Assembly: GCA_041645215.1 (NCBI GenBank)
Contig: JBAZQK010000006.1
Coordinates: 12,116 to 76,115 of the forward strand
Length of the DNA stretch: 64,000 nucleotides
Reading direction: 5' to 3'
Origin: Patescibacteria group bacterium
GTDB taxonomy: Bacteria; Patescibacteriota; Patescibacteriia; Veblenbacterales; UBA10138
Notes under the pieces: generated by a model
What the model was told of the DNA's origin: nothing
Databases searched by the model: none
What the model saw: the letters and a program-made list of their open reading frames with translations, nothing else
Shown here: positions 36,616 through 62,281 of the stretch, in pieces
How positions within the stretch are numbered: position 1 is the first letter of the stretch
Layout of the letters: each line of letters begins with the position of its first letter
Translations under genes and position numbers: made by a program

Positions 36616-36630
36616 GTTATATAGATAAAT

Positions 36631-39600: not shown

Positions 39601-40205
39601 TCAAAGCAATTTTCTTTGATTCCGGTGACGTTATAGTAAGGGAAGGATTCAATCCCGGTATAGTTGAATATGAAAAAAAATATAGTTTGCTGCCAGGATC
39701 TCTATACAAATCTGCACACGACAGGCAATATTGGAAAGATTTTACCTTGGGTAATATATCCGAAAATGAATACTTTGCGGATGTAGCAGACGATTACAAA
39801 AAAGCAAAAATTGATACCACAGATTTTAAAAAGATTATCCAGGATAATTTTAAATTAAATGAAGAATTGTTAGATTTTTTAATGACAATTAAAAATAAAT
39901 TTATTTTAGGAGTAATCTCTAATCATCCCAAGGAATTTTTTGAATGGTGCAGACAATATTTTGGTTGGGATAAGATTTTTACCGTTTATGCGGTATCTGG
40001 TGATTTGCATGTTAGAAAACCCGATAAGAGAATATTTGATTATGCTGTTAAAAAAGCTGGTGTGGCAGGTGGCGAATGTATCTATGTTGACAATCGCTCG
40101 GACAGAATAGAGGGTGCACAGTTAGCTGGTATGCAGGTAATTATTTATCAGAATATCAATCAATTAAAAACTGATCTATCTAATTTTATTAATGTAACCG
40201 ATTAA
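39597..40205 (+). CDS. HAD-superfamily hydrolase (putative phosphatase)
   Basis: IFFDSGDVIV (motif I region), LGVISN (II), VRKPDKRIFDYA (III), CIYVDNRSDRIEGAQLAGM (IV). ATGA overlap with paralog 6. Confidence 0.6.
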   Translation: MIKAIFFDSGDVIVREGFNPGIVEYEKKYSLLPGSLYKSAHDRQYWKDFTLGNISENEYFADVADDYKKAKIDTTDFKKIIQDNFKLNEELLDFLMTIKNKFILGVISNHPKEFFEWCRQYFGWDKIFTVYAVSGDLHVRKPDKRIFDYAVKKAGVAGGECIYVDNRSDRIEGAQLAGMQVIIYQNINQLKTDLSNFINVTD

Positions 40206-40208
40206 TTT

Positions 40209-41204: not shown

Positions 41205-41210
41205 CGAAAA

Positions 41211-42041: not shown

Positions 42042-42046
42042 ATTTT

Positions 42047-43534
42047 ATGGCAAAAATTCCTAGTTGGCAATATTATTTTGCACGTAAATTTTCCTTACAG
42101 CGTTTTGAGATTATATCACGGGTTTTTTATTCGCCCTTTTATTTTAAGCATTTTAAAGTTAATTTAAAAAATATTTTGGTCAAACCAGGCCAAAGTCATA
42201 ATTATGAAATTTGGTTAGACAGAGATGAATATAAAATAGCCGTTAATAGAGTATATAAAACAGTCTGTAAGAATTATCATACCTATAAATATTATCGTAA
42301 AATTTTTATACAGACTCAACTTAGATTTCTTAAGGTGGCGATGATGGTGGCTCGCCAAACAAACAATAGATTAACTAATAAAGAATTGGGTAAATTATAT
42401 AGGTTGTTTACTCGCCACCTACAGAAGCTTAATAGTAAGCCAATTATAGTAGTGTTTATGATTGAACCGTTGGTTAGTTCAGCTGCGGTAATGATTTTGA
42501 CGGATATTCTCAAACGAAATAGTAAAATGAATGAGTATGATAATGGTCTTTCTATAATATTTTCACCTGATACTAAAACAGCCGTACCGCAGATGCGGCA
42601 GGCGTTGTTAAAAATTGCCTTAGGAGTTAAAACTGGTAGGTTAAATAAAACAAAGACAAGATATTTGCTTAATAGAGTCGTGAAGCAATATAATTTTTTG
42701 CCATGTTACGATATTATTGATAAGCCATGGGATTATGATTATTTTAAAAACGAGTTAAAGGGAATACTTAAAAGAACTGTAGTGGAATTAAAAAGCGAAT
42801 TAAAAGATATGAACATAGTGTGGCGTCAACGTAAAAATAATTTTAAAGCTTTTTTATCAAGATATGACATTAGCCAATCGGAAGAAGATATTTTAAGAAT
42901 TGCACACGATTTAGTTTTTATAAAAGACGAGAGAGATGATTATCGGCGTCGCGGTGGTTACTATGGTCGAAGACTTTTTGCCGAGATTGGCCAAAGATTA
43001 GACGTAGATTTACGCGCAGCTTGTTATTTAACTGTAGACGAAACAGAAGGTTTTTTATTTAGAGATATTAAACCATCTCGTGAGTTACTAAAAGAAAGGC
43101 AGACAACTTATTTATTATTACGTAAGTTAGGATCTCCTACTGCAGTAGCAAGTGGAGGTCAGATAAAAGCAATTATAAAAAATGAACATTTTCTATCATT
43201 AGATCAGTCTAAAGTTGATGAAATAACTGGTGTAGCAGGTTCTGTTGGTATGGCTAGAGGTTCAGTTATTATTGTTAATACTAAACATGATTTACGACGT
43301 GTCTTGCCTGGTTCAATTATGATAGCAGTTACTACCAGTCCGGATTATGTACCCGTTATGAGATTGTGTAAGGCGATTGTAACTAACGAAGGTGGAATAA
43401 CCTCTCACGCCGCCATAGTTTGTCGAGAATTAAGAATACCATGTATAGTTGGTACTAAAATAGCAACCAGAATATTCAAAGATGGCGATTTAGTAGAGGT
43501 TGACACCAAGAGGGGAATAGTGAGAAAATTGTAA
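42047..43534 (+). CDS. PEP-utilizing swivel-domain protein, paralog 7
   Basis: KAIVTNEGGITSHAAIVCRELRIPCIVGTKIATRIFKDGDLVEVDTKRG. Confidence 0.75.
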   Translation: MAKIPSWQYYFARKFSLQRFEIISRVFYSPFYFKHFKVNLKNILVKPGQSHNYEIWLDRDEYKIAVNRVYKTVCKNYHTYKYYRKIFIQTQLRFLKVAMMVARQTNNRLTNKELGKLYRLFTRHLQKLNSKPIIVVFMIEPLVSSAAVMILTDILKRNSKMNEYDNGLSIIFSPDTKTAVPQMRQALLKIALGVKTGRLNKTKTRYLLNRVVKQYNFLPCYDIIDKPWDYDYFKNELKGILKRTVVELKSELKDMNIVWRQRKNNFKAFLSRYDISQSEEDILRIAHDLVFIKDERDDYRRRGGYYGRRLFAEIGQRLDVDLRAACYLTVDETEGFLFRDIKPSRELLKERQTTYLLLRKLGSPTAVASGGQIKAIIKNEHFLSLDQSKVDEITGVAGSVGMARGSVIIVNTKHDLRRVLPGSIMIAVTTSPDYVPVMRLCKAIVTNEGGITSHAAIVCRELRIPCIVGTKIATRIFKDGDLVEVDTKRGIVRKL

Positions 43535-43560
43535 GACTACTGAATTTTTATATTTTTAAT

Positions 43561-44397
43561 ATGTTTAATAAGATAAGTTTTATTCAACAATTATTTCTAA
43601 ACCAAGCCAAACAGGGGAAACGACGTAAAATAGCCATTGGTATTTGGCGGCCGGAACAGGCAGTAGTAGACGGTTTAAAAGCCGCTACTGATTATGCGGA
43701 TTTAACAGTGGTTGGCTGTGATATACCTGGTCTTGATTGTATACCAACTGTTAACGATGATGAGGCTAGCCGCAAAATAATTGAATTGTTAAGGACAAGC
43801 AAGGTTGAAGGCTTTGTTAGGGCTCAACTCAAAGATTCCTACACTCACAAGGTATATTTAGAAACCTTTAAAAAAGAAGAACCTAAATTTAAATTCTGTC
43901 CATTTACCATAACTAATGATGATTATTGGTTTACCATTTCCAGTCCGTCTAATTATAACTCTTTAACTTTGGAAGCAAAACTAGCGGAGGCTGAGAGGGC
44001 CGCTAAATGGCTTAGTGATTTAGGTATAAAGCCAAAAATTGGTGTTACCAGTACTAGGCGTTTATCCGGGCGAGTTGGTGAATTTGGTTTACTGGAGGAA
44101 ATTGCTGAGAACTGTGAAAAAACCACTAAGCATTTAACTGATATGGGTTTTGAAGTAAAGGAATATTATATTGAGTACGAACGAGCCGTGTGGGAAGGGT
44201 GTAATTTAATAATTCCGTCAACTGGAATGATTGGCAATACCTGGTCTAAGGGTTTAACTTTTCTTGGCGGTTGGACTAATGTGTGCTGTCCTATGTTAGA
44301 TGAAGGTGTGTATTATGATGATACAGCTCGTAATCATGTAAATTGGTTTTGGCCTATTATCTCAACAGTTGCTTGGATAAATAGGGAAAAATCGTAG
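43561..44397 (+). CDS. Hypothetical protein (weak resemblance to phosphate acyl/acetyltransferase PTA/PlsX fold)
   Basis: KRRKIAIGIWRPEQAVVDGLKAATDYADLTVVG loosely matches the PTA_PTB N-terminal pattern. Low confidence. Confidence 0.25.
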   Translation: MFNKISFIQQLFLNQAKQGKRRKIAIGIWRPEQAVVDGLKAATDYADLTVVGCDIPGLDCIPTVNDDEASRKIIELLRTSKVEGFVRAQLKDSYTHKVYLETFKKEEPKFKFCPFTITNDDYWFTISSPSNYNSLTLEAKLAEAERAAKWLSDLGIKPKIGVTSTRRLSGRVGEFGLLEEIAENCEKTTKHLTDMGFEVKEYYIEYERAVWEGCNLIIPSTGMIGNTWSKGLTFLGGWTNVCCPMLDEGVYYDDTARNHVNWFWPIISTVAWINREKS

Positions 44398-44478
44398 GTT
44401 GACATATTTAATGTTTTGTATTACTATTAACAGTTAAATAAATCTAAACAAAAAAGCAAAAGGAGGAGAAAGATAATT

Positions 44479-45777
44479 ATGGAGATGAAAAAAGAATTAT
44501 CAGAATCTACAGAGAACCTTGAAAACAAGGAACGTTTTAAGTTGGCCGCTAAAAATATCATTGACTGTTTTTCCTTTAATCCGGAAAAAGAAAGTTTGCT
44601 GGTTATAACTGATGGCAAGGTTATTGAAACTAATAATGATTTTATAGAAGCCATATCAGGTGAATTAAATTTACGTACGCAGGATAAACAACGTACTAAG
44701 GGCAATTGGGAGATGGTGGTTGTACCGGCATCACCTAAATCTGCTACGCCGCTGGGCGAAATGATTGGCGAAAAAATGAAAAATCGTCCGGTGTTAATAG
44801 TAACCTCAATGTCACGTTCTCATTCTAAAGAAACAGGAGCTGCCTTTAGAGGTGATATATCAGATAAGTCGGTATTTGATGAAATTATTGCCAGCAAAAC
44901 TTTTCGTAATACAGTAGCCAATGGTTATTCGGCATATACTCCGGAAAGGTTAGAAACTATTGGTAATAAATTACCTGATTCCACCTACGAAAAAATGAAA
45001 CTGTTTGCTAAAAACAATCGCAGCCGAATCATTTCTATTACTAAGGGTCATAATCCTTATGAGATATTAACTCGTGGCGCGGTAGAGGAGCCGGTGGAAA
45101 ATCTTAAGGAAAGAGCCAGTAAAGTAAATGAAATCATGAAAGACGTTGTGAGGGTTCATATTACTTCGTCCTTGGGAACAGATATTTGGTTAAGCCTCAG
45201 CACTGATTTAAAAGAAGTTGAAGATGGTAACTTGGGTAAGCCGGGTAGTTTATCTAATTACCCAATAGGTGAGTGGTCGTGTTCGCCTGATTGGAAAGAT
45301 TCTGATGGTGTATTGGTAATTGATGGTCCGTGCGGAGGTAACATTAACCAAGATATTATTGATCAAAGTAGTCCATTTATTTTGACTTTTAAAAACGGCG
45401 AGGTAATTGATATTAAAGGTGAAGGCCAGGCGTTAGAAATGTGGAAAAATTATCTTGATAGTGGCAACAACGAAAAGAATCAGGCTTACAAACTAGCTGA
45501 ATTTGCGGTAGGGACTAACACCAAGGCGCTTAAAGATAAACCGCGTGAATTTTGGGGATCCTCAGAAGGAGAAAAAGTCTATGGTACGGCCCATATAGCC
45601 GTTGGCAGTAATGGTTCTTTCGGGCGTACACCAGATGATCCTAATTATAATTCAGCGGCGGTACATTGTGATATGGTTCTGGGTTTGCACAAAAAAAATC
45701 GCGTGACAGTTGAATGTCAGAAAAAAGATGGAGCCAAATTCGTTTTGATTGATAATGGTGAGCCAAAAGAATATTAA
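44479..45777 (+). CDS. Putative M29-family (aminopeptidase T/AmpS-like) aminopeptidase
   Basis: Length ~430 aa. The C-terminal GTAHIAVGSN... block resembles the conserved HIAxG region of M29 peptidases. Confidence 0.35.
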   Translation: MEMKKELSESTENLENKERFKLAAKNIIDCFSFNPEKESLLVITDGKVIETNNDFIEAISGELNLRTQDKQRTKGNWEMVVVPASPKSATPLGEMIGEKMKNRPVLIVTSMSRSHSKETGAAFRGDISDKSVFDEIIASKTFRNTVANGYSAYTPERLETIGNKLPDSTYEKMKLFAKNNRSRIISITKGHNPYEILTRGAVEEPVENLKERASKVNEIMKDVVRVHITSSLGTDIWLSLSTDLKEVEDGNLGKPGSLSNYPIGEWSCSPDWKDSDGVLVIDGPCGGNINQDIIDQSSPFILTFKNGEVIDIKGEGQALEMWKNYLDSGNNEKNQAYKLAEFAVGTNTKALKDKPREFWGSSEGEKVYGTAHIAVGSNGSFGRTPDDPNYNSAAVHCDMVLGLHKKNRVTVECQKKDGAKFVLIDNGEPKEY

Positions 45778-45848
45778 TTATTTCTTCATATTTTAAAATA
45801 TCCCTGATTATGTATAATGTAGTCAGGGATTAATTTTTATTAATCATT

Positions 45849-46859
45849 ATGCAATTTATTCTACCTTTTTCTAAAATATCCAAAAAAGACGTAGGTTTAG
45901 CCGGTGGGAAGGGGGCGAGTTTGGGGGAAATGTCACAGGCGGGCATCCCGGTGCCGCCGGGGTTTGTGGTGCTGGCCACGGCTTTTGACCGGTTTTTGCA
46001 CGAAACCGGGTTGGAGGTGGATATTGAGGCGCAGTTAAAAAAGGTTAATTATAAGGATGTTAATTCAGTTGATAAATACAGTGCGGTAATTCGTGATTTG
46101 ATTCATCGCGCCAAAATGCCTAGAGATTTGCAAAGCGAAATTATGAACGCTTATGCCAATCTGGTGAGTGGACAACGGCAAATAGTTAATAATAAGGCAG
46201 TCACCAGCCATAAACTATCAGCTATCAGCCAACTGCCATTTTATGTCGCGGTGCGGTCTTCGGCCACGGCTGAGGATTCCACCCAGGCCTCGTGGGCCGG
46301 GGAGTTGGAGACTTATTTAAATACCACCGAGAAAGATTTATTAAGGTATGTGAAGGATTGCTGGTCGTCCCTGTTTACGCCGCGGGCGATTTTTTATAGA
46401 CGTGAGAAAAAAATGCATAAAGCCAAAGTTTCAGTGGCGGTAGTGGTGCAGGCTATGGTGCAATCGGAAATTTCGGGTGTTGCTTTTACCGTGCACCCGG
46501 TTACCAAAGACCGTAACCAAATGATTATTGAGGCTGGCTATGGTTTGGGCGAGGCGATTGTGTCCGGCCAGATTACGCCTGATTCCTATATTATAGATAA
46601 AAAAAACTTGTCGCTATTGGATATCAACGTGGCCGAGCAAACGCGGCAGTTGATCGGTTTGGTTAAGGGCGGAAATAAGTGGCAAGCCGTGGCTAAAAAA
46701 GACGGCGCTAAACAAAAATTAACCGGCCAGCAAATAATTGAACTGGCTAAAATTTGCGTTAACATTGAACAGCATTATAAATTTCCCTGTGATATTGAAT
46801 GGGCGTACTATAAGGGCAAATTCTACATAACTCAATCCCGCCCCATCACCACGCTTTGA
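45849..46859 (+). CDS. Stand-alone PEP-utilizing-enzyme N-terminal ATP-grasp nucleotide-binding domain (PPDK_N; PEP synthase/RPH-like)
   Basis: KDVGLAGGKGASLGEMSQAGIPVPPGFVV matches the N-terminal signature of PEP synthase/rifampin phosphotransferase. At 336 aa it equals the ATP-grasp domain only, with no swivel or substrate domain. Confidence 0.8.
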   Translation: MQFILPFSKISKKDVGLAGGKGASLGEMSQAGIPVPPGFVVLATAFDRFLHETGLEVDIEAQLKKVNYKDVNSVDKYSAVIRDLIHRAKMPRDLQSEIMNAYANLVSGQRQIVNNKAVTSHKLSAISQLPFYVAVRSSATAEDSTQASWAGELETYLNTTEKDLLRYVKDCWSSLFTPRAIFYRREKKMHKAKVSVAVVVQAMVQSEISGVAFTVHPVTKDRNQMIIEAGYGLGEAIVSGQITPDSYIIDKKNLSLLDINVAEQTRQLIGLVKGGNKWQAVAKKDGAKQKLTGQQIIELAKICVNIEQHYKFPCDIEWAYYKGKFYITQSRPITTL

Positions 46860-54454: not shown

Positions 54455-55405
54455 ATGAAACATCACATTTTAACAATCGGCGGGGCGACTTGGGACGTGC
54501 TTTTAACTACTGATGAGTGCTATTTGTTGCCGGGCGGTTCACACAAGTTATTAGGTTTTCCTTATGGCGGTAAAGTTGATGTCAGTAACGCGGTTTATGG
54601 TTTTGGCGGCGGGGCGGCTAACGTGGCAGTTGGTTTAAGCAAATTGGGCTTAAAAACTTCAATTATAACCCGTTTGGGCAACGACTGGCGCGGCCATGAA
54701 GTTGTAAAAAACCTGCAGCACTATAAAATTGATACCACTAAGGTGCAAAAGGATAAAAAACTGGTAACGCCGCTGTCATTTGTCATAACCAGCTGTGGGC
54801 CGCGTGACCATGTTGTTTTTGTGGACCGGGCAGCCTCACAAAATTTACAAATTCCGCGCCAGCCGGACAAAACCGCTACTTGGCTATATTTAACCAGTTT
54901 AGCTACGCCTACCTGGTCAATAAGTTTAGACAAGCTCTTTCAGGCCAGCAAAGCAAGGGGCGTGAAAGTTTTTTGGAATCCGGGTTCAAAACAATTACAA
55001 CAGTTTGAATCTTTAAAAAAGCTCTTGCCTTACGTAACGATTCTTAATGTTAATAAGGAAGAAGCTGGATTAATAATTAAGCGCAGAAAGTCCGCCGCGT
55101 CTGACGTATCAGTTTTGTTAAAAGGATTAAAGTCGTTTGGACCTGAGATGGTTATTATAACTGACGGCGCCAACGGAGCTTATTGTTTTGATGGCAGTCA
55201 TATTTTATATCATGCGGCCTTAAAAGTTAAACCGGTTAACACCACCGGCGCTGGTGACGCCTTTGGCAGCGGTTTTTTAGCCGGTTTAATTCATACCGGT
55301 GAAGTCAAAAAAGCCCTGCATTGGGGTATGCTTAACTCCAGCTCGGTTATTACCCTCCCCGGCGCGCAAAAAGGGTTGTTGAGGTTGAGGGCTATCACCA
55401 GTTAA
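54455..55405 (+). CDS. PfkB-family carbohydrate/nucleoside kinase (ribokinase-like)
   Basis: GGAANVAVGLSKLG; C-terminal TTGAGDAFGSGFLAGL anion-hole motif. Confidence 0.75.
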   Translation: MKHHILTIGGATWDVLLTTDECYLLPGGSHKLLGFPYGGKVDVSNAVYGFGGGAANVAVGLSKLGLKTSIITRLGNDWRGHEVVKNLQHYKIDTTKVQKDKKLVTPLSFVITSCGPRDHVVFVDRAASQNLQIPRQPDKTATWLYLTSLATPTWSISLDKLFQASKARGVKVFWNPGSKQLQQFESLKKLLPYVTILNVNKEEAGLIIKRRKSAASDVSVLLKGLKSFGPEMVIITDGANGAYCFDGSHILYHAALKVKPVNTTGAGDAFGSGFLAGLIHTGEVKKALHWGMLNSSSVITLPGAQKGLLRLRAITS

Positions 55406-55421: not shown

Positions 55422-56462
55422 ATGGCTGGCCAAAAATCAATTATTAGGTTACAAGAGAGTAACATTAAGGACTATTTGAAGCTTAGGGCATCAGTGGTTC
55501 CTTTTGCTATTAAAAATATTAAAAAAATTGAACTGGTTGAACAATATAGCAATAGTAATTATTTGTTTAAACTCTTCATTTCTAAACCAAAATCGATTTA
55601 TTATTTAAAACAGGGTTGGATATACAATCGACGGAGCGAATTGCAAAATAAACCGTTTCCAGTTGACCCGACTAGGATCTTGGGTGAGGTTAAGTTGATA
55701 CGGTTATTATCCACAATCTGGGATAGAGATTGCGTACCCAGGGTGTATTTTTTAGATAGAAAAAATTATGCTTTTTTAATGTCTGACGTGTCCAAAACCG
55801 GCAAATTATTAATTGAGGAATTTAATCATAATCGCGTCCACCCGGAAATAGCTAAAAAGTTGGCAGTTTATTTAGCAAAATTACACACCTTGACCTGGAA
55901 AACAAAAACCACAGCTGGTTGCAGTCGCCGTTATACTAAATTCATGAAAGAATATTTATTTAAATATCATTGGGGCTATGGGGCTAACAAATTGCTGCCC
56001 TTTAATAATGTTAGTGAATTTTTTAGCGAAGTAGAGAATACTGCCAGCAGTATTATTTGGGCAGACCCTATTTATCGCAATATATTTGTTAAACCTGAAG
56101 GTAAGCTTGCTTTGGTAGATTTTGATTTTACTATTCGTTATGACCCTATGGCTGATGTGGCGATTTTATTGTCCCATTGGGTATGGATGTTACTCAAAGG
56201 AAATAAGGAAGTCAGCAAAGACTGCCATAAATTTATAAAAACGTTTAGCAGCTCATATTGGCCGGTTTGGATAAAAGTCCATAAAATCAGCAATCAGACT
56301 ATGCAACAAATGAAATTACGAACTGATAAATGGATAGGAATTTACCTGCTATCTCGGACAGATGGAAAGTCGGGTTCGTATTTTAAAAAATGGCCTAGTT
56401 GGGAAAAGCGTATTCGTCAGCTCGGTATAAAATTGTTCAATGGCGAAGCCTCAATTTTTTGA
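55422..56462 (+). CDS. Protein-kinase-like (APH/ChoK/MTR-kinase family) phosphotransferase
   Basis: Brenner-motif-like RNIFVKPEGKLALVDFDF followed by DPMADVAILLSHW. Confidence 0.45.
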   Translation: MAGQKSIIRLQESNIKDYLKLRASVVPFAIKNIKKIELVEQYSNSNYLFKLFISKPKSIYYLKQGWIYNRRSELQNKPFPVDPTRILGEVKLIRLLSTIWDRDCVPRVYFLDRKNYAFLMSDVSKTGKLLIEEFNHNRVHPEIAKKLAVYLAKLHTLTWKTKTTAGCSRRYTKFMKEYLFKYHWGYGANKLLPFNNVSEFFSEVENTASSIIWADPIYRNIFVKPEGKLALVDFDFTIRYDPMADVAILLSHWVWMLLKGNKEVSKDCHKFIKTFSSSYWPVWIKVHKISNQTMQQMKLRTDKWIGIYLLSRTDGKSGSYFKKWPSWEKRIRQLGIKLFNGEASIF

Positions 56463-56470: not shown

Positions 56471-57133
56471 TTATCTAGTCTCGTCGGGCTGATTATCAGC
56501 AGTTACAAAATTTACAATATCATCAACTTTATCAAGTGAAAATTTCTTTAACCAGACAGGTGTCTGATCTTTTATTTCATTCGCAAAAGTCTTAAGCCAA
56601 GCTTCATCTTGCTGAACTAGGCCATAGTCGGATTTGTTTTGTAAGTCTGGTTGATTTTCATCCCAACCAACCAAAGCGATTGGTTTAGGCTTATCAGATG
56701 TTAAATTAAAAGCTAGAGTTGATAAAAGATGGGCCCGTGTGCCCTTGGTACCAGGGAAAAACAAAAAGGCTTTTGAGTTGGCCAAAAACAATCCCATGCG
56801 TAAGGCCCAAGCAGTATCCTTGACCTGTTGTTCAGTCGGATTGTCATTCTTAAGCAGCTCTTTGGTTATGTCGGCACAATTGACAGATTCAATGGCATTT
56901 TCATCAAACTGTGTGACCCGTCCGTCAGCTGTCATTTCATGAGGAGTTATTTTTATACCCGATTGTTCCAAAACTTTAACAAAGCCGCCATAGGCTCCCA
57001 CATTAGCCTGCCAGCCCTTATCTTTTAGCGCTTGACTAATAGCTAAGGCCGATTCTTTAAACGGCCCTTGCGGGTCGCGGTCGCCTTGAACAAAGATATG
57101 TTTTTCGTGATCGTTTTTGTATAGTTCTTGCAT
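56471..57133 (-). CDS. SLOG-fold (LOG/YpsA-like) Rossmannoid protein, paralog a
   Basis: QGDRDPQGPF...GAYGGFVKVLE...FFPGTKGTRAHL resembles the LOG PGGxGTxxE motif. Paralogous to 58859..59467. Confidence 0.4.
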   Translation of the reverse strand: MQELYKNDHEKHIFVQGDRDPQGPFKESALAISQALKDKGWQANVGAYGGFVKVLEQSGIKITPHEMTADGRVTQFDENAIESVNCADITKELLKNDNPTEQQVKDTAWALRMGLFLANSKAFLFFPGTKGTRAHLLSTLAFNLTSDKPKPIALVGWDENQPDLQNKSDYGLVQQDEAWLKTFANEIKDQTPVWLKKFSLDKVDDIVNFVTADNQPDETR

Positions 57134-57194
57134 AATTATTAGGTTAATAATACTCTTTAAGTATAGTAAAACTTAACTAATTGTCAATTTTGTT

Positions 57195-57962
57195 ATGAAT
57201 ATAAGAAATCAAGAATTAATTGACAGGTTAGGCAAATTTCCTAATCTTTACACCCTAGTTCCGGTAATGACTACTTATGGATTGATTCCGGCGGATTTTT
57301 CCCGTGGCGTGGTAGGCGACCCGACAATTCTGCGTTTAATGGCTGAAGAATTTAATCAGCTGATTGATTTTAATAATATAGATATTATTGCCGGCATTGA
57401 TTTGTCTGGTGTGACTATGGCTTGCGCTTTGTCGCTGGTAACTAATAAACCCCTAATTATTGTTCGTGAAGCCAGCAAACGCCCAGGGCGTCCCAGTATA
57501 GTTGGCGATGTTAATTTTATTAAACCGGGAGTCAGGGTTTTATTGGTTGATGATTCCATGGCAGCGGCTAAAACTAAACAAGAACGAGTGGAAAAATTAG
57601 CCGCAGTTGGCGCTAGAGTAACTGACTTAGCGGTTTTTATTTATGGCCAGTATCAAATTGACCGCTACCAAGATAAATTTCAAGATGTATTTAAGATACA
57701 AAAATGGTTTGACAATAGCGGTATTAAACTGCATTATTTGTTGACTTGGAAAGAGCTGGCTGATTTACAATATAAGTATGGCACTATCAATAAAGAATTT
57801 AACGAGGTGGTACGGGAGGCCTTACACTGGGACGCGTGGTTGGATAATGACGAGGGTTATTTAGCTAAATTCGTAAATTGTTTTCGGATTCATAACGTAC
57901 CCTTGCCTGATTATGTAATTGAGTTTTATAAACAAAAAGGGATTGATATAAATAATTTATGA
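57195..57962 (+). CDS. Type I phosphoribosyltransferase, OPRT(PyrE)-like, paralog 1
   Basis: GIDLSGVTMACALS...KPLIIVREASK...VRVLLVDDSMAAAKT is the PRPP-binding motif. The C-terminal ~90-aa extension is shared with the paralogs. Confidence 0.65.
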   Translation: MNIRNQELIDRLGKFPNLYTLVPVMTTYGLIPADFSRGVVGDPTILRLMAEEFNQLIDFNNIDIIAGIDLSGVTMACALSLVTNKPLIIVREASKRPGRPSIVGDVNFIKPGVRVLLVDDSMAAAKTKQERVEKLAAVGARVTDLAVFIYGQYQIDRYQDKFQDVFKIQKWFDNSGIKLHYLLTWKELADLQYKYGTINKEFNEVVREALHWDAWLDNDEGYLAKFVNCFRIHNVPLPDYVIEFYKQKGIDINNL

Positions 57963-58026
57963 CAAGTATGTGGTACGAGGCCTAAAATTGTTCAAAGAAG
58001 AAACTTCAGTTTTTTGATATAAAAAT

Positions 58027-58812
58027 ATGTTAGATTACTTAGAAGCTGATATAGCTGGCAAAAAACGAATTTGCCAAACATTGATAGACGTCAAGGCGTT
58101 AATTTTTGGTAAAATTATTCCTTCCATAAATGTTTCGCCGTTCTATGTGGAAACACGATGGTTATTCTCTAACCCAAAAACTTTGCGTATTATAACTGAA
58201 GAAATGGCTAAGATAATTAAGCAATTAGATGTTGACTTAATCGCTGGTTGTGAGTTTGCCGGTGTACCCATTGCTTCTGCACTATCGCTCGAAACCAATT
58301 TGTCAGCAGTTTATTTGCGTAAAAAACCCAAAGAATATGGCAGTAAAAGCGCGATTGTAGGTAAGGTAAGTGGTAGCCAAGCAATTCTAATTGATGACGC
58401 CTCTGGCAGGGGAATAGGTAAAGAACAATTTGCTAAATATTTGGAAGAGGCGGAAGTAAGGGTAACCGATATGCTGGTAATTTATTGGACCGGCCATCCG
58501 CTGGTGCCTTGGTATGCTGAAAATAATGTTAAACACCATCAGTTAATTGAGTTTGAAGATTTTGCCCATTATGCTTATAAGGTTGGTTATATATCACAAA
58601 CGCTGCATGATATGATATGGGATTGGTGGAAAGATTATAATATAGAAAAACGGTCTTTTGATTGGAAACGCTGGGATATGGTTTTTACTCAGGCTAAAAA
58701 AGAAGGTTTTGAAATATTTAATGAGAGTCAATCATATGAAGATATGGTGGCGGACGCCAAAAGACTGGGTAAATGGATAGAACCGCCAGCAGGAAAATAT
58801 GAATATATATAA
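58027..58812 (+). CDS. OPRT-like phosphoribosyltransferase, paralog 2
   Basis: GCEFAGVPIASALS...VYLRKKPKEYG...AILIDDASGRGIGK. Confidence 0.6.
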   Translation: MLDYLEADIAGKKRICQTLIDVKALIFGKIIPSINVSPFYVETRWLFSNPKTLRIITEEMAKIIKQLDVDLIAGCEFAGVPIASALSLETNLSAVYLRKKPKEYGSKSAIVGKVSGSQAILIDDASGRGIGKEQFAKYLEEAEVRVTDMLVIYWTGHPLVPWYAENNVKHHQLIEFEDFAHYAYKVGYISQTLHDMIWDWWKDYNIEKRSFDWKRWDMVFTQAKKEGFEIFNESQSYEDMVADAKRLGKWIEPPAGKYEYI

Positions 58813-58858
58813 ATTCAAGCCCTCCAGAAAAAGGAGGGCTTGTGTTAATTGTTTTTTG

Positions 58859-59467
58859 TTACGAAATTAGAAAGTTTATAGCATCATCAACTTGATGTAG
58901 ACCAAAAAATTGGAACCAGGTTGTGTCTTTGTGAAGGCCATATAATTTCATTATTAACGCTACAGTCTCAATCTCCCAACCAAGTAATGCTATATTGCGG
59001 AAGTTACCTTCCTTACCCCAACCTTTTACGTTATAGGTCAGAATCGGAATCAAATGCGCCAAGGTACCTTCCCTACCGGCAAAAAAACAATATGATTTTG
59101 ACAATGATGCCCAAATAGCTAGACGATTTGACCAGCTGGTCATTTTTTTACATTTTTCAAAGACTCCACCGCCTAACGTGGTTATTACTGCATCCGCAGT
59201 TGGTCCAAAATTAATATATGGCGAGGTTTTAAATTTTACATCACCATGGTCCTTAATTTCAGTCTCATGACAAATACAGGCTACGCCGGTATCTTCCAGT
59301 ACTTTTACAAAACCGCCGTAGGCACCAAGCGATACGCCCCAGCCCTCTTTGTTGAGTAAATTACCTAGTTTGGTTGCTGCTTCTTTTGCTGGACCTTCAG
59401 GGTCTCTATCTCCTTGAAGAAAAACCAAGGGAATTTCATAAATCTGTTGATCAATTAGATTAGCCAA
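58859..59467 (-). CDS. SLOG-fold (LOG/YpsA-like) protein, paralog b
   Basis: QGDRDPEGPA...GAYGGFVKVLE...FFAGREGTLAHL. Confidence 0.4.
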   Translation of the reverse strand: MANLIDQQIYEIPLVFLQGDRDPEGPAKEAATKLGNLLNKEGWGVSLGAYGGFVKVLEDTGVACICHETEIKDHGDVKFKTSPYINFGPTADAVITTLGGGVFEKCKKMTSWSNRLAIWASLSKSYCFFAGREGTLAHLIPILTYNVKGWGKEGNFRNIALLGWEIETVALIMKLYGLHKDTTWFQFFGLHQVDDAINFLIS

Positions 59468-59582
59468 TTTTTAACCTCCGTTGTTTGTTGATATTTGTTT
59501 GTGTTTAGTGCGGGAATTTATTTTTTTTTAACAATGTAGTATAATTCATTTATTGATTCTTGTCAATAACTTATGGCAACTT

Positions 59583-60260
59583 ATGGCAAATGAAGCAATT
59601 CTTAAAGCGCTAGAAGGTGTTACGCATATCTTGGGGCCGATTACAAGAAAAGATGGCATGATCTTACCTTTGCTTATTGATACTGTGCCGCTTATGTTTC
59701 AACCAGCATCATTTAAGTTATTGATTGAAGAGTTGAGTAAAGAAGTTAAACAAATGGATATAGAAGTGGTAGCGGGAGGAGTAACAATAGGTGTGCCATT
59801 AGCGGCCGGAGTAGCTTTAACAGTGGGTAAAAAATTTGCTGTGGTTCGTAAAGAACCAAAAGGCTACAGCCAAAAGCGAGTAGTTGACGGTAGCATAGAG
59901 CAACTAGACAGAGTAGTTTTACTTGATGATTTTTATGTCAACGGAGAAATGAAAGAATTATTTATATCCCATCTGGCTGGTGTTGGCGGTGCAGTGACTG
60001 ATATTTTGTCGGTTGGCCTCTTGAGTGAAAAGTTACTACGTGATTGGCTATTAAAATTTCCTAATATCCGGGTTCATTATCTGGCTACTTACGTAGATAT
60101 GAGCCGGAGATTAATGAATCGGGGAATAATAAGTCCTAAATTAAACGAAGTGGTAGAGTATTTTGTAACAGATCCATATAATTGGCAGAAAAATAAGGAA
60201 ATATGGAATATGTTTAATAGCCTTCTTCCAACCGAACCATTATCAAAAACATGCTTATGA
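59583..60260 (+). CDS. OPRT-like phosphoribosyltransferase, paralog 3
   Basis: GGVTIGVPLAAGVA...AVVRKEPKGYS...VVLLDDFYVNGEMK. Start taken at M11 of the tracked ORF by alignment with paralog 4. Confidence 0.6.
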   Translation: MANEAILKALEGVTHILGPITRKDGMILPLLIDTVPLMFQPASFKLLIEELSKEVKQMDIEVVAGGVTIGVPLAAGVALTVGKKFAVVRKEPKGYSQKRVVDGSIEQLDRVVLLDDFYVNGEMKELFISHLAGVGGAVTDILSVGLLSEKLLRDWLLKFPNIRVHYLATYVDMSRRLMNRGIISPKLNEVVEYFVTDPYNWQKNKEIWNMFNSLLPTEPLSKTCL

Positions 60261-60949
60261 TTAACCAAGCAAACAAGCTAGCGCTTTTAGAGGCCTATCA
60301 AAATGTGCGCGAATATTTTAAAGGTCCAATTTATCGCGGCGATGGGGCGGTTGTGCCTTTTACCATAGATTCTCGGCCTTTGCAATGGCAGCCCAAATCA
60401 GCCAAGTTAATAGTTAAATTATTGGCGCACGAGGCCAGTAAGTTCAAACCACAGGCCATTGCCGGCGGGTTAACCGGCGGAGCCTTATGGGGAGTACAAG
60501 TAGCTAATAAGTTAAATTTGCCTTTTATATTGGTACGCAAGCAACCGCGTGGCCGCAGTATTGACCGCGGGTTAATTGAAGGTGAATTAGTTAAGGGTCG
60601 CCGCGTGGTCGTAATTGATGATTCCTTAATTTCCGGAGAAACAGCCAGTAAATTTGCGCAAACTATTAAAAAAGCAAAATTTACCATTATTGGTTGTGTA
60701 GTTATACAGATTATGAATTTGGGCTATATAAAAAAATGGGAAGGGATAAATAAAATTCCGGTAAAATATCTGCTCAGTTACAAGGAACAGGCTGACAATT
60801 TTTATAAACGAGGATTGATTGATAAAGAGCTAAGATATTTATTGTATAAATTCATTGCTAAACCCTATACTTGGCATAAAAATAAATCGGATTATAAAAT
60901 TTTTGAGCGTCGCCTGGCTAAACAAAAAGTTTGGCGAGTAGTGAAATAA
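60251..60949 (+). CDS. OPRT-like phosphoribosyltransferase, paralog 4
   Basis: GGLTGGALWGVQVA...ILVRKQPRGRS...VVVIDDSLISGETA. Confidence 0.6.
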   Translation: MLMINQANKLALLEAYQNVREYFKGPIYRGDGAVVPFTIDSRPLQWQPKSAKLIVKLLAHEASKFKPQAIAGGLTGGALWGVQVANKLNLPFILVRKQPRGRSIDRGLIEGELVKGRRVVVIDDSLISGETASKFAQTIKKAKFTIIGCVVIQIMNLGYIKKWEGINKIPVKYLLSYKEQADNFYKRGLIDKELRYLLYKFIAKPYTWHKNKSDYKIFERRLAKQKVWRVVK

Positions 60950-60975
60950 TTTATCAATTCTGCTAATATAGATAT

Positions 60976-61605
60976 ATGCCATCACAAATTGGAACAGTTC
61001 CGGGAACAGTTATTCGCGAAGGCGGGGTTGAGAATAAATCCGGTCTGGTGTCGGTGCGGCCGGGGGTGGCTACCGGTGAAGTTGAATTTGAAACTAACGG
61101 CTTGGTAGTGTCTATTTCCGGCGGGGGGAGCTTACCGCAAGGCCATCCGATTTGCTATGAAGTAGAAAAGTTAGCCCTTGGGATAGCCTCCCGGGGCGGG
61201 GTGCTGGTTAACGGCGGCGAGAATAACGGCACGATGTTGGCTGTTACCAGCGTCGCCCGCGAGTATACTTTGGGTATTCATTGTCCATATCACCAAGAAA
61301 TTCCCTTTGGAACTATGGCGGTAGTGAATTCTTACCAAACCCGTAAAATGCTTATTTCGATTATGCCTTATGTTGTAGTATTCCCCGGACAAGTCGGCAC
61401 GATGGATGAACTTATGACCTGCATTGGCTGGATTAAATCATTATTCAAGCAAAATGGCGTGCCGCCGCAGTTATTTGTGCACACTTACTGGTGGGACGTA
61501 ATAGATTTGTTGAATAAAAAAGGCGCTATTCAGGATAATGTTTGGCAGCATATCAAACAATTTAACGAAGTAGATGAAATCCTCAAACAAATCCAAACTA
61601 CTTAA
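60976..61605 (+). CDS. LOG-family protein (cytokinin riboside 5'-monophosphate phosphoribohydrolase-like)
   Basis: VNGGENNGTMLAV (GGGxxGhM-like) and VVFPGQVGTMDEL (PGGxGTxxE). Confidence 0.6.
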   Translation: MPSQIGTVPGTVIREGGVENKSGLVSVRPGVATGEVEFETNGLVVSISGGGSLPQGHPICYEVEKLALGIASRGGVLVNGGENNGTMLAVTSVAREYTLGIHCPYHQEIPFGTMAVVNSYQTRKMLISIMPYVVVFPGQVGTMDELMTCIGWIKSLFKQNGVPPQLFVHTYWWDVIDLLNKKGAIQDNVWQHIKQFNEVDEILKQIQTT

Positions 61606-62281
61606 ACTAATAGCTTTGCATCCGCAAATTATAAATTGGGGGCCAACTTTGCATTCCCAAGGTTTTTTAGTACCATATTATTTTAATTTTCGCTCAGCTG
61701 GCGCTTTGCCGAAATTACGTAAGGCTTTGGTGGCGGAATTGATAAATGAAATAAAAAAATACAAAATAGATGTAATTGCCGGCGTTGAATCAGCCGGTAT
61801 GGGTTGGGCTGCTATAGTGGCGGATAGATTAAATAAACCGTATGTTTATGTACGTAAAGAAAGAAAAAAATTTTTAAACCGACGCATAGTGGAGGGTTGC
61901 TTTAAGCCGGGTGCTAGAGCCGTACTGATTGATGATACTATTTTGCTGGGTAAAACTATAAGAAGTATGGCCATGGGCGCTAAGCGCGATAAATTGCAAA
62001 TTACTAATATTTTGCTGCTTTATACAGCCCAACCGTCAGTCGCAATCTATACTACATTGTCGCGCTGGCTCAACAAACAACATATAGCTATAAAAGCTTT
62101 ACTGAGTAAAATTGAACTAAGCGATTTATTTATCAAACAAGGCACATTGATTCCTGAGATCGTAGAGCTTAATAATATGTACATGATAAATCCCTATGGT
62201 TGGCATAAATTGCGTCGCGCGCAAAAATTGCTACTAATTTTACGCAAACATAAACGTAAATTTAGGCCTGCCGGATTATAA
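61574..62281 (+). CDS. OPRT-like phosphoribosyltransferase, paralog 5
   Basis: GVESAGMGWAAIVA...YVYVRKERKKF...AVLIDDTILLGKT. The 5' end overlaps the LOG gene by ~30 nt, so the start is uncertain. Confidence 0.55.
   Translation: MKSSNKSKLLKLIALHPQIINWGPTLHSQGFLVPYYFNFRSAGALPKLRKALVAELINEIKKYKIDVIAGVESAGMGWAAIVADRLNKPYVYVRKERKKFLNRRIVEGCFKPGARAVLIDDTILLGKTIRSMAMGAKRDKLQITNILLLYTAQPSVAIYTTLSRWLNKQHIAIKALLSKIELSDLFIKQGTLIPEIVELNNMYMINPYGWHKLRRAQKLLLILRKHKRKFRPAGL

What the first reader, a model, noticed from the sequence alone, without database searches (positions are those of the whole stretch)
56471..62281. Cluster of five OPRT-like phosphoribosyltransferase paralogs interleaved with three LOG/SLOG-fold proteins
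Five genes encode ~230-260-aa type I PRTases of the PyrE/OPRT type. Each has the flexible-loop K(E/K)xK motif and the hhhhDD(s)xxxGxT PRPP motif, plus a shared ~90-aa C-terminal extension. They are highly diverged from one another. Between them lie one canonical LOG-family gene (GGxxGxM and PGGxGTxxE motifs) and two antisense paralogs with a LOG-like C-terminal F[FA]GxxGTxAHL motif. PRTases make nucleotide N-glycosidic bonds from PRPP and LOG enzymes hydrolyse them. Immediately upstream lie a PfkB sugar/nucleoside kinase and an APH-like kinase. Two readings are possible. One is an expanded nucleobase/nucleoside salvage battery, plausible in a reduced genome. The other is a nucleotide-modifying or nucleotide-depleting accessory (conflict-type) module; SLOG and PRTase domains recur in such systems.
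Basis: partly seen in the sequence, partly recalled or inferred. Interest (0 to 1): 0.75.

Follow-up and report, generated by a model that had tools for sequence, protein, structure and literature searches.

The report
Patescibacterial kinase–LOG-like–phosphoribosyltransferase gene module
The five phosphoribosyltransferase genes and three LOG-fold genes are real, and they belong to a conserved chromosomal gene module found so far only in the tiny, host-dependent Patescibacteria, which most likely recycles nucleobases and sugars from scavenged nucleotides rather than acting as a defence system.

Summary
Window 54455-62281 encodes a PfkB kinase, an APH-fold kinase, five PRTases that are 24-31% identical to each other, one LOG protein and two antisense LOG-fold paralogs (SL1, SL2).

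Corrections:
- The PRTases are full-length relatives of OPRT. Most of the "90-aa C-terminal extension" is the normal OPRT C-terminus.
- The "APH-like" kinase is a divergent 5-methylthioribose-kinase (MtnK) relative.
- SL is an unmodelled LOG-derived family. It keeps the LOG Arg and GxxGT loop, but the catalytic Glu is His or Gln in 54 of the 58 members compared and Glu in none.

New finding: kinase + SL + 1-6 OPRT-derived PRTases form a conserved triad. Of 24 non-redundant loci holding the kinase, 21 have PRTs and 20 have SL. Every locus whose source names an organism is Patescibacteria. The loci sit in three different housekeeping contexts. None was found in viral, phage or plasmid collections, and there was no significant defence-model hit.

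Most likely function (confidence about 0.5): a metabolic split-and-rebuild salvage module. It would cleave glycosidic bonds, phosphorylate the pentose and re-attach free bases to PRPP. Substrates are untested. The conflict reading has no support, and recent PyrE duplication is refuted. Arrays of PEP-utilizer phosphotransferase genes appear linked to the module.

The parts
54455..55405 (+). PfkB-family sugar kinase (ribokinase-like). Accessory to the module; present only in the Suf...RecJ lineage.
   Evidence: PF00294 E 3.8e-47. Best NCBIfam model is ribokinase at 118 bits against a cut-off of 299.65; ribose-1-phosphate kinase models score E 1e-24 and 9e-17. Found next to the kinase in 5 of 24 loci.
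55422..56462 (+). MtnK-like (5-methylthioribose-kinase-like) APH-fold kinase. Core component of the module.
   Evidence: PF01636 E 9e-8; TIGR01767 (MTRK) E 1e-6, far below its cut-off. AF2 model pLDDT 94, pTM 0.91. The top 14 Foldseek PDB hits are all MtnK, TM 0.72-0.77. The family profile hits B. subtilis MtnK at E 2e-11, with shared NxNY(V/L)F, KQAxxY, DxxxxN and DFD/DPE motifs. The family comprises 29 clusters, and every named one is Patescibacteria.
56471..57133 (-). SL1: LOG-fold protein of an unmodelled family in which the catalytic Glu is replaced by His. Core component.
   Evidence: AF2 model; Foldseek hits to LOG structures. Conserved residues include Q16, G17, G46, G49, W109, R112, G128, G131, T132, H135 and W157. 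R112 aligns to the LOG Arg and H135 to the LOG Glu. 68 representative clusters match in 1.84e9 proteins.
57160..57187 (-). Promoter-like site for SL1 (TTGACA-N16-TATACT).
   Evidence: 11 of 12 matches, joint best in the region. Consensus match only.
57195..57962 (+). PRT1: OPRT-derived type I PRTase with an atypical PRPP loop (DDSMAAAKT).
   Evidence: PF00156 E 3.5e-11; OPRT models E 3e-15. Reciprocal best hit in L014 at 39% identity.
58027..58812 (+). PRT2: OPRT-derived PRTase; the most widely retained orthogroup.
   Evidence: TIGR00336 E 3.6e-22. Orthologues at 57-75% identity in L001, L014 and L018; PRT2-type copies are present in most loci.
58816..58842 (.). 10-bp GC-rich hairpin between the convergent PRT2 and SL2 genes (terminator-like on both strands).
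   Evidence: Pattern match only.
58859..59467 (-). SL2: second SL paralog, 35% identical to SL1.
   Evidence: Orthologue at 66% identity in L002.
59538..59566 (-). Promoter-like site for SL2 (TTGACA-N17-TATACT).
   Evidence: 11 of 12 matches. Consensus match only.
59553..60260 (+). PRT3: OPRT-derived PRTase. The ORF starts at a TTG; the likely true start is the ATG at 59583.
   Evidence: NF001729 (OPRT) E 6.7e-23; no Pfam hit. The gene call in the identical contig L008 is 225 aa. Reciprocal best hit in L014 and L016.
60251..60949 (+). PRT4: OPRT-derived PRTase with a near-canonical PRPP loop.
   Evidence: PF00156 E 4e-10. Aligns end to end with the solved OPRT 2aee. Orthologues at 71-95% identity.
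60976..61605 (+). LOG-family protein with RK and PGQVGTMDE motifs intact. Accessory; found in 5 of 24 loci.
   Evidence: PF03641 32.8 bits against 27. Type II LOG 5zi9 at E 1.9e-6. Census.
61574..62281 (+). PRT5: OPRT-derived PRTase.
   Evidence: PF00156 E 2.9e-8; OPRT models E 1e-17. Reciprocal best hit in L014 and L016.
29686..46859 (+). Possibly linked accessory block. It holds seven PEP-utilizer (phospho-His swivel) paralogs, a HAD hydrolase, a SerK/SbnI-like protein, an MtxX-like protein, an M29-like protein and a stand-alone PPDK_N ATP-grasp.
   Evidence: Homologues lie next to the PRT array in L012 and L031, and inside it in L030 and L034.

Best explanation
This is a chromosomal metabolic module specific to Patescibacteria. 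It handles N-ribosyl compounds (nucleotides or nucleosides) by splitting them and rebuilding them.

Its invariant core is one MtnK-like kinase and one SL protein, joined by a variable array of OPRT-derived phosphoribosyltransferases. SL has a LOG fold and keeps the LOG Arg and the GxxGT loop, which binds phosphate in LOG, but has His or Gln where LOG has its catalytic Glu.

Proposed flow:
1. LOG and/or SL open the N-glycosidic bond of scavenged (deoxy)nucleoside monophosphates or related ribosides. This frees the base and a pentose (phosphate).
2. PfkB (at C5) and the MtnK-like kinase (at the anomeric C1) phosphorylate the pentose, for re-use or catabolism.
3. Each PRTase paralog, with its own orthogroup-specific 'hood' loop, joins a different free N-heterocyclic base to PRPP to give a ribonucleoside 5'-monophosphate.

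One sugar-side kinase and one SL, but n base-side PRTases, fits 'constant sugar, variable base'.

Shown: folds and families, conserved catalytic residues, gene linkage, taxonomic restriction and non-mobile context.

Inferred: every substrate, the direction of flux, and whether SL is a hydrolase at all.
For: - Linkage. Among 24 non-redundant loci holding the kinase, PRTs occur in 21 (61 genes) and SL in 20 (23 genes). No other family recurs beyond single lineages.
- Context. There are three unrelated housekeeping settings: Suf...RecJ, between scpA and scpB, and downstream of giant proteins.
- Kinase. MtnK is the nearest fold (TM 0.72-0.77) and the nearest sequence profile hit (E 2e-11). The ATP Lys, the catalytic D...N and the DFD motif are conserved.
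- PRTases. They are homologous to OPRT over their full length. In 58 members, counting identical residues only: R99 48, K100 47, K103 43, D124 57, D125 58, G130 52 (E. coli numbering). The hood loop is the most variable region between orthogroups (2.67 bits) but is conserved within them (0.78 bits).
- Paralogy. Four of the five window paralogs have reciprocal-best partners in L014, whose kinase is only 39% identical. The paralogy is therefore old and maintained.
- LOG keeps the RK and GTxDE motifs.
- Organism. Patescibacteria, which generally lack de novo nucleotide synthesis (PMC10633639).
- Not mobile. No viral, phage or plasmid copies and no significant PADLOC hit.
Against: - No substrate has been tested.
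- PRT copy number differs (2, 3 or 5) even between close relatives that share the same synteny. That is odd for an essential salvage set.
- The cluster encodes no PRPP synthetase, and I could not check the rest of any genome.
- LOG plus PRTase acting on the same base would be a futile cycle.
- SL lacks the LOG catalytic Glu in every one of the 58 members compared (47 His, 7 Gln). It may be a binding or regulatory protein, or it may catalyse different chemistry.
- NAPRT-like PRTases replace or join the OPRT-like ones in L006, L015 and L031. PEP-utilizer phosphotransferases sit inside some arrays. Both hint at acceptors beyond the standard nucleobases.
- The cluster has lower GC (0.38) than its flanks (0.41-0.44).
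Confidence: 0.5

Rival explanations
1. Base-transplant biosynthesis, following the logic of angustmycin synthesis. LOG or SL frees bases from ordinary nucleotides. The PfkB and MtnK-like kinases (and, where present, the PEP-utilizer phosphotransferases and the HAD phosphatase) activate a non-standard sugar phosphate. The PRT-fold enzymes then attach bases to that donor. The product would be non-canonical nucleotides, nucleosides or a cofactor-like metabolite.
For: There is an experimentally reconstituted precedent that combines a LOG enzyme (AgmA), a sugar-phosphate pyrophosphokinase, a PRT-fold transferase and a HAD phosphatase (PMC8599513). Two different sugar kinases are present in the cluster. 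A HAD hydrolase and seven PEP-utilizer paralogs lie nearby, and PEP-utilizer genes sit inside the PRT arrays in L030 and L034. PRT1-3 have atypical PRPP loops. NAPRT-like and Nnr-like genes occur in some arrays.
Against: The cluster has no pyrophosphokinase (Prs/AgmC-like), no tailoring enzymes and no exporter. The core triad sits alone inside housekeeping operons, for example between scpA and scpB. Patescibacteria have very small biosynthetic repertoires. The PPi-binding flexible-loop residues are those of ordinary OPRT.
Confidence: 0.2
2. Nucleotide catabolism feeding the pentose-bisphosphate/RuBisCO route. NMPs are split by LOG or SL, or by the PRTases running in reverse with PPi. The MtnK-like kinase then converts ribose-5-phosphate to ribose-1,5-bisphosphate for carbon and energy. 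Base salvage would be secondary.
For: MtnK-type enzymes phosphorylate the anomeric OH of 5-substituted riboses (established knowledge of MtnK). The kinase family has several invariant Arg residues (R71, R85, R219 and R312; R85 and R312 remain invariant in the 25-sequence alignment). These could bind a 5-phosphate. PfkB also matches ribose-1-phosphate kinase models. A NUDIX gene lies next to the module in L014. From my own knowledge, many Patescibacteria carry form II/III RuBisCO and the AMP pathway.
Against: No RuBisCO, ribose-1,5-bisphosphate isomerase or AMP phosphorylase was seen in any of the loci fetched. Catabolism would not need up to six base-specific PRTases. The kinase's substrate is unknown.
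Confidence: 0.15
3. A conflict or defence module that depletes or modifies nucleotides, as seen for SLOG and PRTase domains in Ter, CBASS-like and other systems.
For: SLOG and PRTase domains do recur in conflict systems (PMC7824862). PRT copy number varies and the paralogs are highly divergent. The SL genes are antisense and have their own strong promoter-like sites. GC content is lower than in the flanks. There are weak sub-threshold hits of PRT4 to PRTase-CE and to PADLOC PRTase_III-A.
Against: No significant PADLOC match for any of the ten proteins. Nothing was found in viral contigs, phage records or plasmids. No effector, sensor, NTPase, nuclease, TIR or transmembrane partner recurs. The position is conserved within housekeeping synteny, and no integrase or transposase is adjacent to the module in the loci fetched (the one IS1595-family transposase seen, in L016, lies about 5 kb beyond it). 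The catalytic residues are those of a metabolic OPRT.
Confidence: 0.07
4. The five genes are redundant, recently duplicated bona fide PyrE copies.
For: The best NCBIfam and PDB matches are OPRT.
Against: Pairwise identity is only 24-31%. All scores are far below the OPRT equivalog cut-offs (56-81 bits against 245). Four of the five paralogs have separate reciprocal-best partners in a distant relative. Hood-loop signatures are specific to each orthogroup.
Confidence: 0.01

Closest known systems
Orotate phosphoribosyltransferase (PyrE), Gram-positive/eukaryote-type subfamily (e.g. PDB 2aee, 4ohc, 3qw4)
   Same: The homology runs the full length, including the C-terminal 'PxxW' helix region. The flexible-loop R-K-x-x-K, the acidic DD pair and the DDxxSTGxTK-type PRPP loop are shared.
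   Different: There are 1-6 paralogs per locus, only 24-31% identical to each other. Scores fall far below the equivalog cut-offs. The hood (acceptor) loop is rewritten in each orthogroup. There are 20-55 extra C-terminal residues. The genes are always linked to an MtnK-like kinase rather than to pyr genes.
LOG / PpnN nucleoside 5'-monophosphate phosphoribohydrolases (PF03641, TIGR00730)
   Same: The window LOG passes PF03641 and keeps the RK and GTxDE motifs. SL has the same fold, the same Arg and the same GxxGT loop.
   Different: The window LOG is below the TIGR00730 cut-off and reads PGQ instead of PGG. SL has His or Gln in place of the catalytic Glu in 54 of the 58 members compared and never Glu; it has its own QG, GAYGG, WxxR and GW signatures and no Pfam or NCBIfam model.
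5-Methylthioribose kinase MtnK (and its 5-deoxyribose kinase relatives)
   Same: It is the nearest structure and the nearest sequence profile hit. The G-loop NxNY(V/L)F, the KQAxxY motif, the catalytic D...N, the metal-binding DFD/DPE and one Arg of the C-terminal 'RR' motif are shared.
   Different: Identity is only about 14%. The protein scores 28 bits against the 275-bit TIGR01767 cut-off. It is about 50 residues shorter. It has its own invariant SRTDGxSGSYF motif. No mtnA, mtnN or other methionine-salvage genes are nearby.
Angustmycin (agm) pathway: LOG + pyrophosphokinase + PRT-fold transferase + HAD phosphatase (PMC8599513)
   Same: A LOG-type base-releasing enzyme, sugar-phosphate kinases and PRT-fold base-attaching enzymes are encoded together.
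   Different: Here there is no Prs-like pyrophosphokinase, epimerase or dehydratase. The PRTs are OPRT-like rather than APRT-like, and there are several of them. The host is a patescibacterium rather than Streptomyces.
Ter-associated and other conflict-system PRTases and SLOG domains (PRTase_2, PRTase-CE, LDcluster families)
   Same: The same two superfamilies are involved.
   Different: There are only sub-threshold matches (E 0.01-0.2). No Ter, TIR, effector or sensor partners occur. The module is not on mobile elements.

Membership tests
Type I phosphoribosyltransferase (PF00156) | Score at or above the Pfam gathering threshold (26.3 bits) | tested here: met
   PRT1 scores 43.1, PRT4 39.7 and PRT5 33.6 bits. 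PRT2 scores 19.7 (below threshold) and PRT3 has no hit. Twenty of 24 family members match at E <= 0.01. PRT2 and PRT3 are linked to the others by BLAST E 4e-21 to 6e-35.
Type I phosphoribosyltransferase (PF00156) | Acidic pair followed by a PRPP-binding loop | tested here: met
   In 58 members, D124 is present in 57, D125 in 58 and G130 in 52. The loop is degenerate in PRT1 (AAAKT).
Orotate phosphoribosyltransferase PyrE (equivalog NF001729 / TIGR00336) | Score at or above the curated equivalog cut-off | tested here: not met
   56-81 bits against 245 for NF001729, and 38-79 bits against 106.8 for TIGR00336.
Orotate phosphoribosyltransferase PyrE (equivalog NF001729 / TIGR00336) | Flexible-loop Arg-Lys-x-x-Lys | tested here: met
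   R99 is R in 48 and K in 6; K100 is K in 47; K103 is K in 43 and R in 8, out of 58. PRT1 has R-E-A-S-K.
Orotate phosphoribosyltransferase PyrE (equivalog NF001729 / TIGR00336) | Orotate as the acceptor substrate | not testable with these tools
   The hood loop differs between orthogroups. Enzyme assays are needed.
LOG (PF03641 / TIGR00730) | Pfam gathering score (27 bits) | tested here: met
   This applies to the gene at 60976-61605 only, which scores 32.8 bits. TIGR00730 is not met (41.9 against 96.35).
LOG (PF03641 / TIGR00730) | PGGxGTxxE motif with the catalytic Glu, and the RK Arg | tested here: met
   LOG reads FPGQVGTMDEL and TRKML. The second Gly is Gln; the Glu and Arg are present.
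LOG, applied to SL1 and SL2 | Pfam gathering score | tested here: not met
   SL1 scores 19.4 bits and SL2 has no hit. Twelve of 46 family members match only weakly.
LOG, applied to SL1 and SL2 | LOG/SLOG Rossmann-like fold | tested here: met
   The AF2 model has pTM 0.80. The top 35 Foldseek PDB hits are LOG proteins, E 7e-7 to 1e-4, TM 0.47-0.59.
LOG, applied to SL1 and SL2 | Catalytic Glu of PGGxGTxxE | tested here: not met
   The aligned position is His in 47, Gln in 7 and Glu in 0 of 58 members. The Arg (R112) and the GxxGT loop are kept.
5-Methylthioribose kinase MtnK (TIGR01767) | Equivalog cut-off of 275 bits | tested here: not met
   28 bits, over the N-terminal 145 residues only.
5-Methylthioribose kinase MtnK (TIGR01767) | MtnK fold and signature motifs (G-loop NxN, KQAxxY, D...N, DxE/DFD, C-terminal Arg) | tested here: met
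   The top 14 Foldseek hits are MtnK. The profile alignment to 2olc is at E 2e-11. Only one Arg of the twin-Arg motif is kept.
5-Methylthioribose kinase MtnK (TIGR01767) | Methylthioribose as substrate, and methionine-salvage gene context | tested here: not met
   No mtnA, mtnN or other methionine-salvage genes occur in any of the 24 loci. The substrate itself is not testable here.
Known anti-phage defence systems (PADLOC-DB v2) | A significant match of any component to a defence-system model | tested here: not met
   The only hits are PRT4 to PRTase_III-A (E 2.5e-4, 18.5 bits) and to ShosT (E 0.03). The other nine proteins have no hit.
PfkB ribokinase | Pfam PF00294, and the ribokinase equivalog cut-off | tested here: inconclusive
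   PF00294 is met (161.5 bits). Ribokinase TIGR02152 scores 118 bits against 299.65, so it is not met. The protein is a PfkB member of unknown specificity.

The most novel reading that the evidence does not exclude
The MtnK-like kinase and SL together form a route to an activated ribose donor that does not need PRPP synthetase. SL is a LOG fold whose water-activating Glu has become His or Gln; it would cleave (deoxy)NMPs by phosphorolysis or by another non-hydrolytic mechanism. The kinase would act on the anomeric position of ribose-5-phosphate. The array of OPRT-derived paralogs then re-attaches each freed base. This would let DNA- and RNA-scavenging Patescibacteria swap bases between deoxy- and ribonucleotides without de novo synthesis. 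A previously unrecognised enzyme family (SL) and new PRTase specificities (for example cytosine or thymine) would follow.
Probability: 0.12. Interest if true: 0.85.

Novelty: new variant of a known kind. Interest (0 to 1): 0.6.

Why it matters
Patescibacteria make up a large share of uncultured bacterial diversity and generally lack de novo nucleotide synthesis (PMC10633639). How they obtain and balance their nucleotide pools is still open.

This module is conserved and lineage-restricted. I found no paper describing it in six full-text searches aimed at these components. It is built from three enzyme types that all act on the ribose-base bond or the ribose anomeric carbon.

It provides concrete, clonable candidates:
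- five or more PRTases with distinct acceptor loops;
- an MtnK-like kinase;
- a new LOG-derived family with a His-for-Glu active site.

With these, the question can be tested directly by enzyme assays and by complementation in E. coli. The SL family and the PRTase radiation could also yield new nucleobase-handling enzymes of biotechnological use.

Tried and rejected
- Exact look-up of PRT4 in the assembly index found nothing. The window's own contig was reached only through SL2 (L008, 100% identical).
- The genome-contig scan with the SL alignment found only 2 loci, because the search patterns were too specific. I switched to the kinase alignment, which gave 20 metagenome loci and none in viral contigs.
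- hhalign of the SL profile against the single LOG sequence gave low probability (4%), although it aligned the GT..H/E motif. The equivalence was confirmed instead by Foldseek and by a profile-versus-PDB alignment.
- phmmer and profile hits of SL to designer PPR proteins are repeat artefacts with no significant single domain. I rejected them.
- Rfam found no riboswitch or other RNA in the window, and there are no tRNAs.
- The two SL upstream regions share nothing beyond the promoter hexamers, so there is no evidence for a common operator.
- PADLOC and tblastn against phages and plasmids gave no significant hit (only sub-threshold PADLOC matches for PRT4).
- Six literature searches aimed at these components (SLOG+PRTase, Patescibacteria or CPR+salvage+PRT, LOG+PRT+gene cluster, Parcubacteria+OPRT, MtnK+Patescibacteria) found no description of this module.
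- A ComFC/DprA-like DNA-handling reading (PRT fold plus SLOG fold) was considered and set aside. The PRTs keep the full OPRT catalytic loop set, and SL is closer to LOG than to DprA.
- A whole-genome check for prs, apt, hpt, upp or RuBisCO was not possible with the tools.

Full report
**What is there.**

The ORF list shows ten genes at 54455-62281.
- Plus strand: PfkB (54455-55405), an APH-fold kinase (55422-56462), PRT1 (57195-57962), PRT2 (58027-58812), PRT3 (59553-60260), PRT4 (60251-60949), LOG (60976-61605) and PRT5 (61574-62281).
- Minus strand: SL1 (56471-57133) and SL2 (58859-59467).

Pfam places PRT1, PRT4 and PRT5 in PF00156 above threshold. PRT2 falls below it and PRT3 gets no hit. 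LOG passes PF03641. SL1 is weak on PF03641 (E 1e-3) and SL2 gets nothing. In NCBIfam all five PRTs score best on OPRT models, far below the equivalog cut-offs. The APH-fold kinase scores best, but weakly, on methylthioribose kinase.

The five PRTs are 24-31% identical to each other and SL1/SL2 are 35% identical.

PRT4 aligns end to end with the solved Streptococcus OPRT 2aee (residues 26-208 against 26-209 of 211). A 24-sequence family profile hits OPRTs at E 3e-44 to 5e-36, against about 1e-15 for adenine PRTases. Its alignment to 4ohc runs through the C-terminal 'PxxW'. The supposed 90-aa C-terminal extension is therefore mostly the ordinary C-terminus of this OPRT subfamily. Only about 20-55 residues are extra.

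The PRPP loop follows the DDxxSTGxTK pattern of that subfamily, but it is degenerate in PRT1-3.

**Organism and synteny.**

Close homologues of PRT4, SL1 and the kinase come from Patescibacteria MAGs (Kerfeldbacteria, Buchananbacteria, Parcubacteria group). Contig L008 is 100% identical to the window.

In related genomes the block lies in the same chromosomal place: Rrf2, SOD, the Suf operon, a membrane protein, PfkB, the kinase, the SL/PRT genes, LOG, DUF5654, RecJ and RNase H. The number of PRTs differs: 2 in L001 and L004, 3 in L002, and 5 in the window.

**The core of the module.**

More distant SL homologues always sit beside a homologue of the APH-fold kinase, and nearly always beside PRTases.
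- L006: two NAPRT-like genes and an LDcluster4 SLOG.
- L012: two PRTs and four PEP-utilizer genes.
- L014: six PRTs.
- L015: two PRTs plus a NAPRT-like gene, next to ComEC.
- L016: three PRTs, lying between scpA and scpB.
- L017: two SL genes and three PRTs.

A metagenome scan with the kinase alignment added 20 loci. In a census of 24 non-redundant loci, PRTs occur in 21 (61 genes) and SL in 20 (23 genes). PfkB (5 loci), LOG (5) and PEP-utilizer genes (4) are lineage-specific.

The loci fall into three unrelated housekeeping settings. Nothing was found in viral contigs, phage records or plasmids, no significant hit in PADLOC, and nothing in Rfam.

**What the parts are.**

*Kinase.* The AlphaFold2 model has pLDDT 94 and pTM 0.91. 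Its 14 best PDB matches are all 5-methylthioribose kinases (TM 0.72-0.77), well above choline and aminoglycoside kinases (0.4-0.55). The family profile finds B. subtilis MtnK at E 2e-11, with matching G-loop, KQAxxY, catalytic D...N, DFD/DPE and one Arg of the C-terminal RR motif. It is a divergent MtnK relative, so it is a candidate kinase for the anomeric OH of a pentose. It fails the MtnK equivalog cut-off and has no methionine-salvage neighbours.

*SL.* The model (pLDDT 81, pTM 0.80) matches LOG structures first. An exhaustive profile search finds only 68 representative clusters in 1.84 billion proteins. Across 58 members the LOG Arg (R112) and the GxxGT loop are kept. The position of the LOG catalytic Glu is His in 47, Gln in 7 and Glu in 0. 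No Pfam or NCBIfam model covers the family. SL is therefore a new LOG-derived family whose chemistry may differ from hydrolysis.

*PRTases.* In 58 sequences the PPi/PRPP residues are conserved. Counting identical residues in E. coli numbering: R99 48, K100 47, K103 43, D124 57, D125 58, G130 52. Each orthogroup has its own signature. PRT1, PRT2, PRT3 and PRT5 have reciprocal-best partners in L014, whose kinase is only 39% identical. PRT2-type genes are the most widely kept. This rules out recent PyrE duplication and fits stable, distinct acceptor specificities.

**Operon layout.**

The two best sigma-70-like matches in the region (TTGACA-N16/17-TATACT, 11 of 12) lie just upstream of SL1 and of SL2 on the minus strand. 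A 10-bp GC-rich hairpin separates the convergent PRT2 and SL2 genes. The two SL upstream regions share no further similarity. These are pattern matches only.

**Interpretation.**

I favour a metabolic split-and-rebuild module (confidence about 0.5).
1. LOG and/or SL open N-glycosidic bonds of scavenged nucleotides.
2. PfkB and the MtnK-like kinase phosphorylate the pentose.
3. The PRTase paralogs attach each freed base to PRPP.

One kinase and one SL, but a variable number of PRTases, fits a constant sugar with variable bases. It also fits organisms that generally lack de novo nucleotide synthesis (PMC10633639).

Weak points:
- no substrate is known;
- PRT copy number varies between close relatives;
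- the cluster has no PRPP synthetase;
- SL lacks the catalytic Glu;
- NAPRT-like and PEP-utilizer genes join some arrays.

Rivals:
- an angustmycin-like base transplant onto another sugar (0.2; precedent in PMC8599513);
- nucleotide catabolism towards ribose-1,5-bisphosphate (0.15);
- a conflict system (0.07; no supporting hit);
- redundant PyrE copies (refuted).

**Linked side observation.**

Ten kilobases upstream, at GC 0.34-0.36, lie seven paralogous proteins of 473-512 aa. Each ends in a PEP-utilizer phospho-His domain with an invariant His. Among them are a HAD hydrolase, a SerK/SbnI-like protein and an MtxX-like protein, followed by an M29-like protein and a stand-alone PPDK_N ATP-grasp. 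Their C-terminal ~170 residues align with rifampin phosphotransferase, including part of its substrate domain. Homologues lie beside the PRT array in L012 and L031, and inside it in L030 and L034. The two paralog arrays may therefore work together.

**Novelty.**

Six full-text searches aimed at these components found no description of this combination. The enzyme superfamilies are known. What is new is the conserved triad, the SL family with its His-for-Glu site, and the OPRT-derived radiation. I class it as a new variant of a known kind (nucleotide salvage/recycling), with interest 0.6.

Noticed in passing
window 29686-43534 (+), with 45849-46859: There are seven paralogous 473-512-aa proteins, each ending in a PF00391 PEP-utilizer (phospho-His swivel) domain with an invariant His. 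A separate stand-alone PPDK_N ATP-grasp protein follows. The layout resembles a split rifampin-phosphotransferase/PigC-like dikinase with seven substrate modules. The N-terminal ~325 aa match nothing. GC is 0.34-0.36, against 0.42-0.47 around it.
   Followed up: partly
window 39597-40205, 41211-42041, 43561-44397, 44479-45777: Interspersed with the PEP-utilizer genes are a YjjG-like HAD (noncanonical pyrimidine nucleotidase-like), a SbnI/SerK-like (ParB-fold serine-kinase-like) protein, a protein like methanogenesis marker 4/MtxX, and an M29-peptidase-like protein. The ORFs at 32611-33255 and 40209-41204 have no family hit.
   Followed up: partly
L012 1070-8153; L030 14430-16142; L034 14354-16117; L031 19278-20774: Homologues of the window's PEP-utilizer proteins (and, in L012, of the 278-aa MtxX-like protein) lie directly beside or inside the PRTase arrays of other Patescibacteria. 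This suggests the two paralog arrays are functionally linked.
   Followed up: partly
L016 9136-14466; L026 8417-14471; L023 9228-12373: In one lineage the kinase/SL/PRT module is inserted between scpA and scpB. L023 carries only the kinase and one PRT there, with no SL.
   Followed up: partly
L006 7470-12904; L015 6921-8330; L031 17068-18450: NAPRT-like proteins replace or join the OPRT-like PRTs next to the kinase and SL. For the two L006 copies the Pfam scan found the N- and C-terminal NAPRTase domains but no hit to the central catalytic domain. L006 also has an LDcluster4 SLOG and a NadR-type AAA_28 kinase nearby.
   Followed up: partly
L031 15574-16365: A Carb_kinase (NAD(P)HX dehydratase-type) gene sits inside the PRT array, between LOG and a PRT. 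It may take the place that PfkB holds in the window.
   Followed up: no
L015 12473-14757: ComEC (Competence plus Lactamase_B domains) lies immediately next to the module in one genome. In the window lineage, RecJ lies just downstream in the syntenic loci (L001, L004, L008).
   Followed up: no
window 13185-25182: A surface-glycan cluster: a Polysacc_synt flippase, several GT1 and GT2 glycosyltransferases and two Wzy_C (O-antigen ligase-like) proteins. Upstream are a PKD/Ig-repeat protein (171-1739), MnmA (2876-4090) and AlaRS (4681-6657).
   Followed up: no
window 60331-60687 (-): A 118-aa antisense ORF lies wholly inside PRT4. It has no called gene in the identical contig L008 and is probably spurious.
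   Followed up: partly
window 57160-57187 and 59538-59566 (-): Both SL genes carry the same strong promoter-like hexamer pair (TTGACA / TATACT). These are the two best matches in the 8.5-kb region scanned. The PRT operons have weaker matches.
   Followed up: partly
L012 11974-20488; L030 200-9872; L031 28-8816; L034 4-9778: In one lineage the module is preceded by a conserved trio of very large proteins (about 1250-1580 aa, 1100-1220 aa and 450-460 aa). The one member scanned (L031, 454 aa) has no significant Pfam domain and the gene calls for L012 list none.
   Followed up: no
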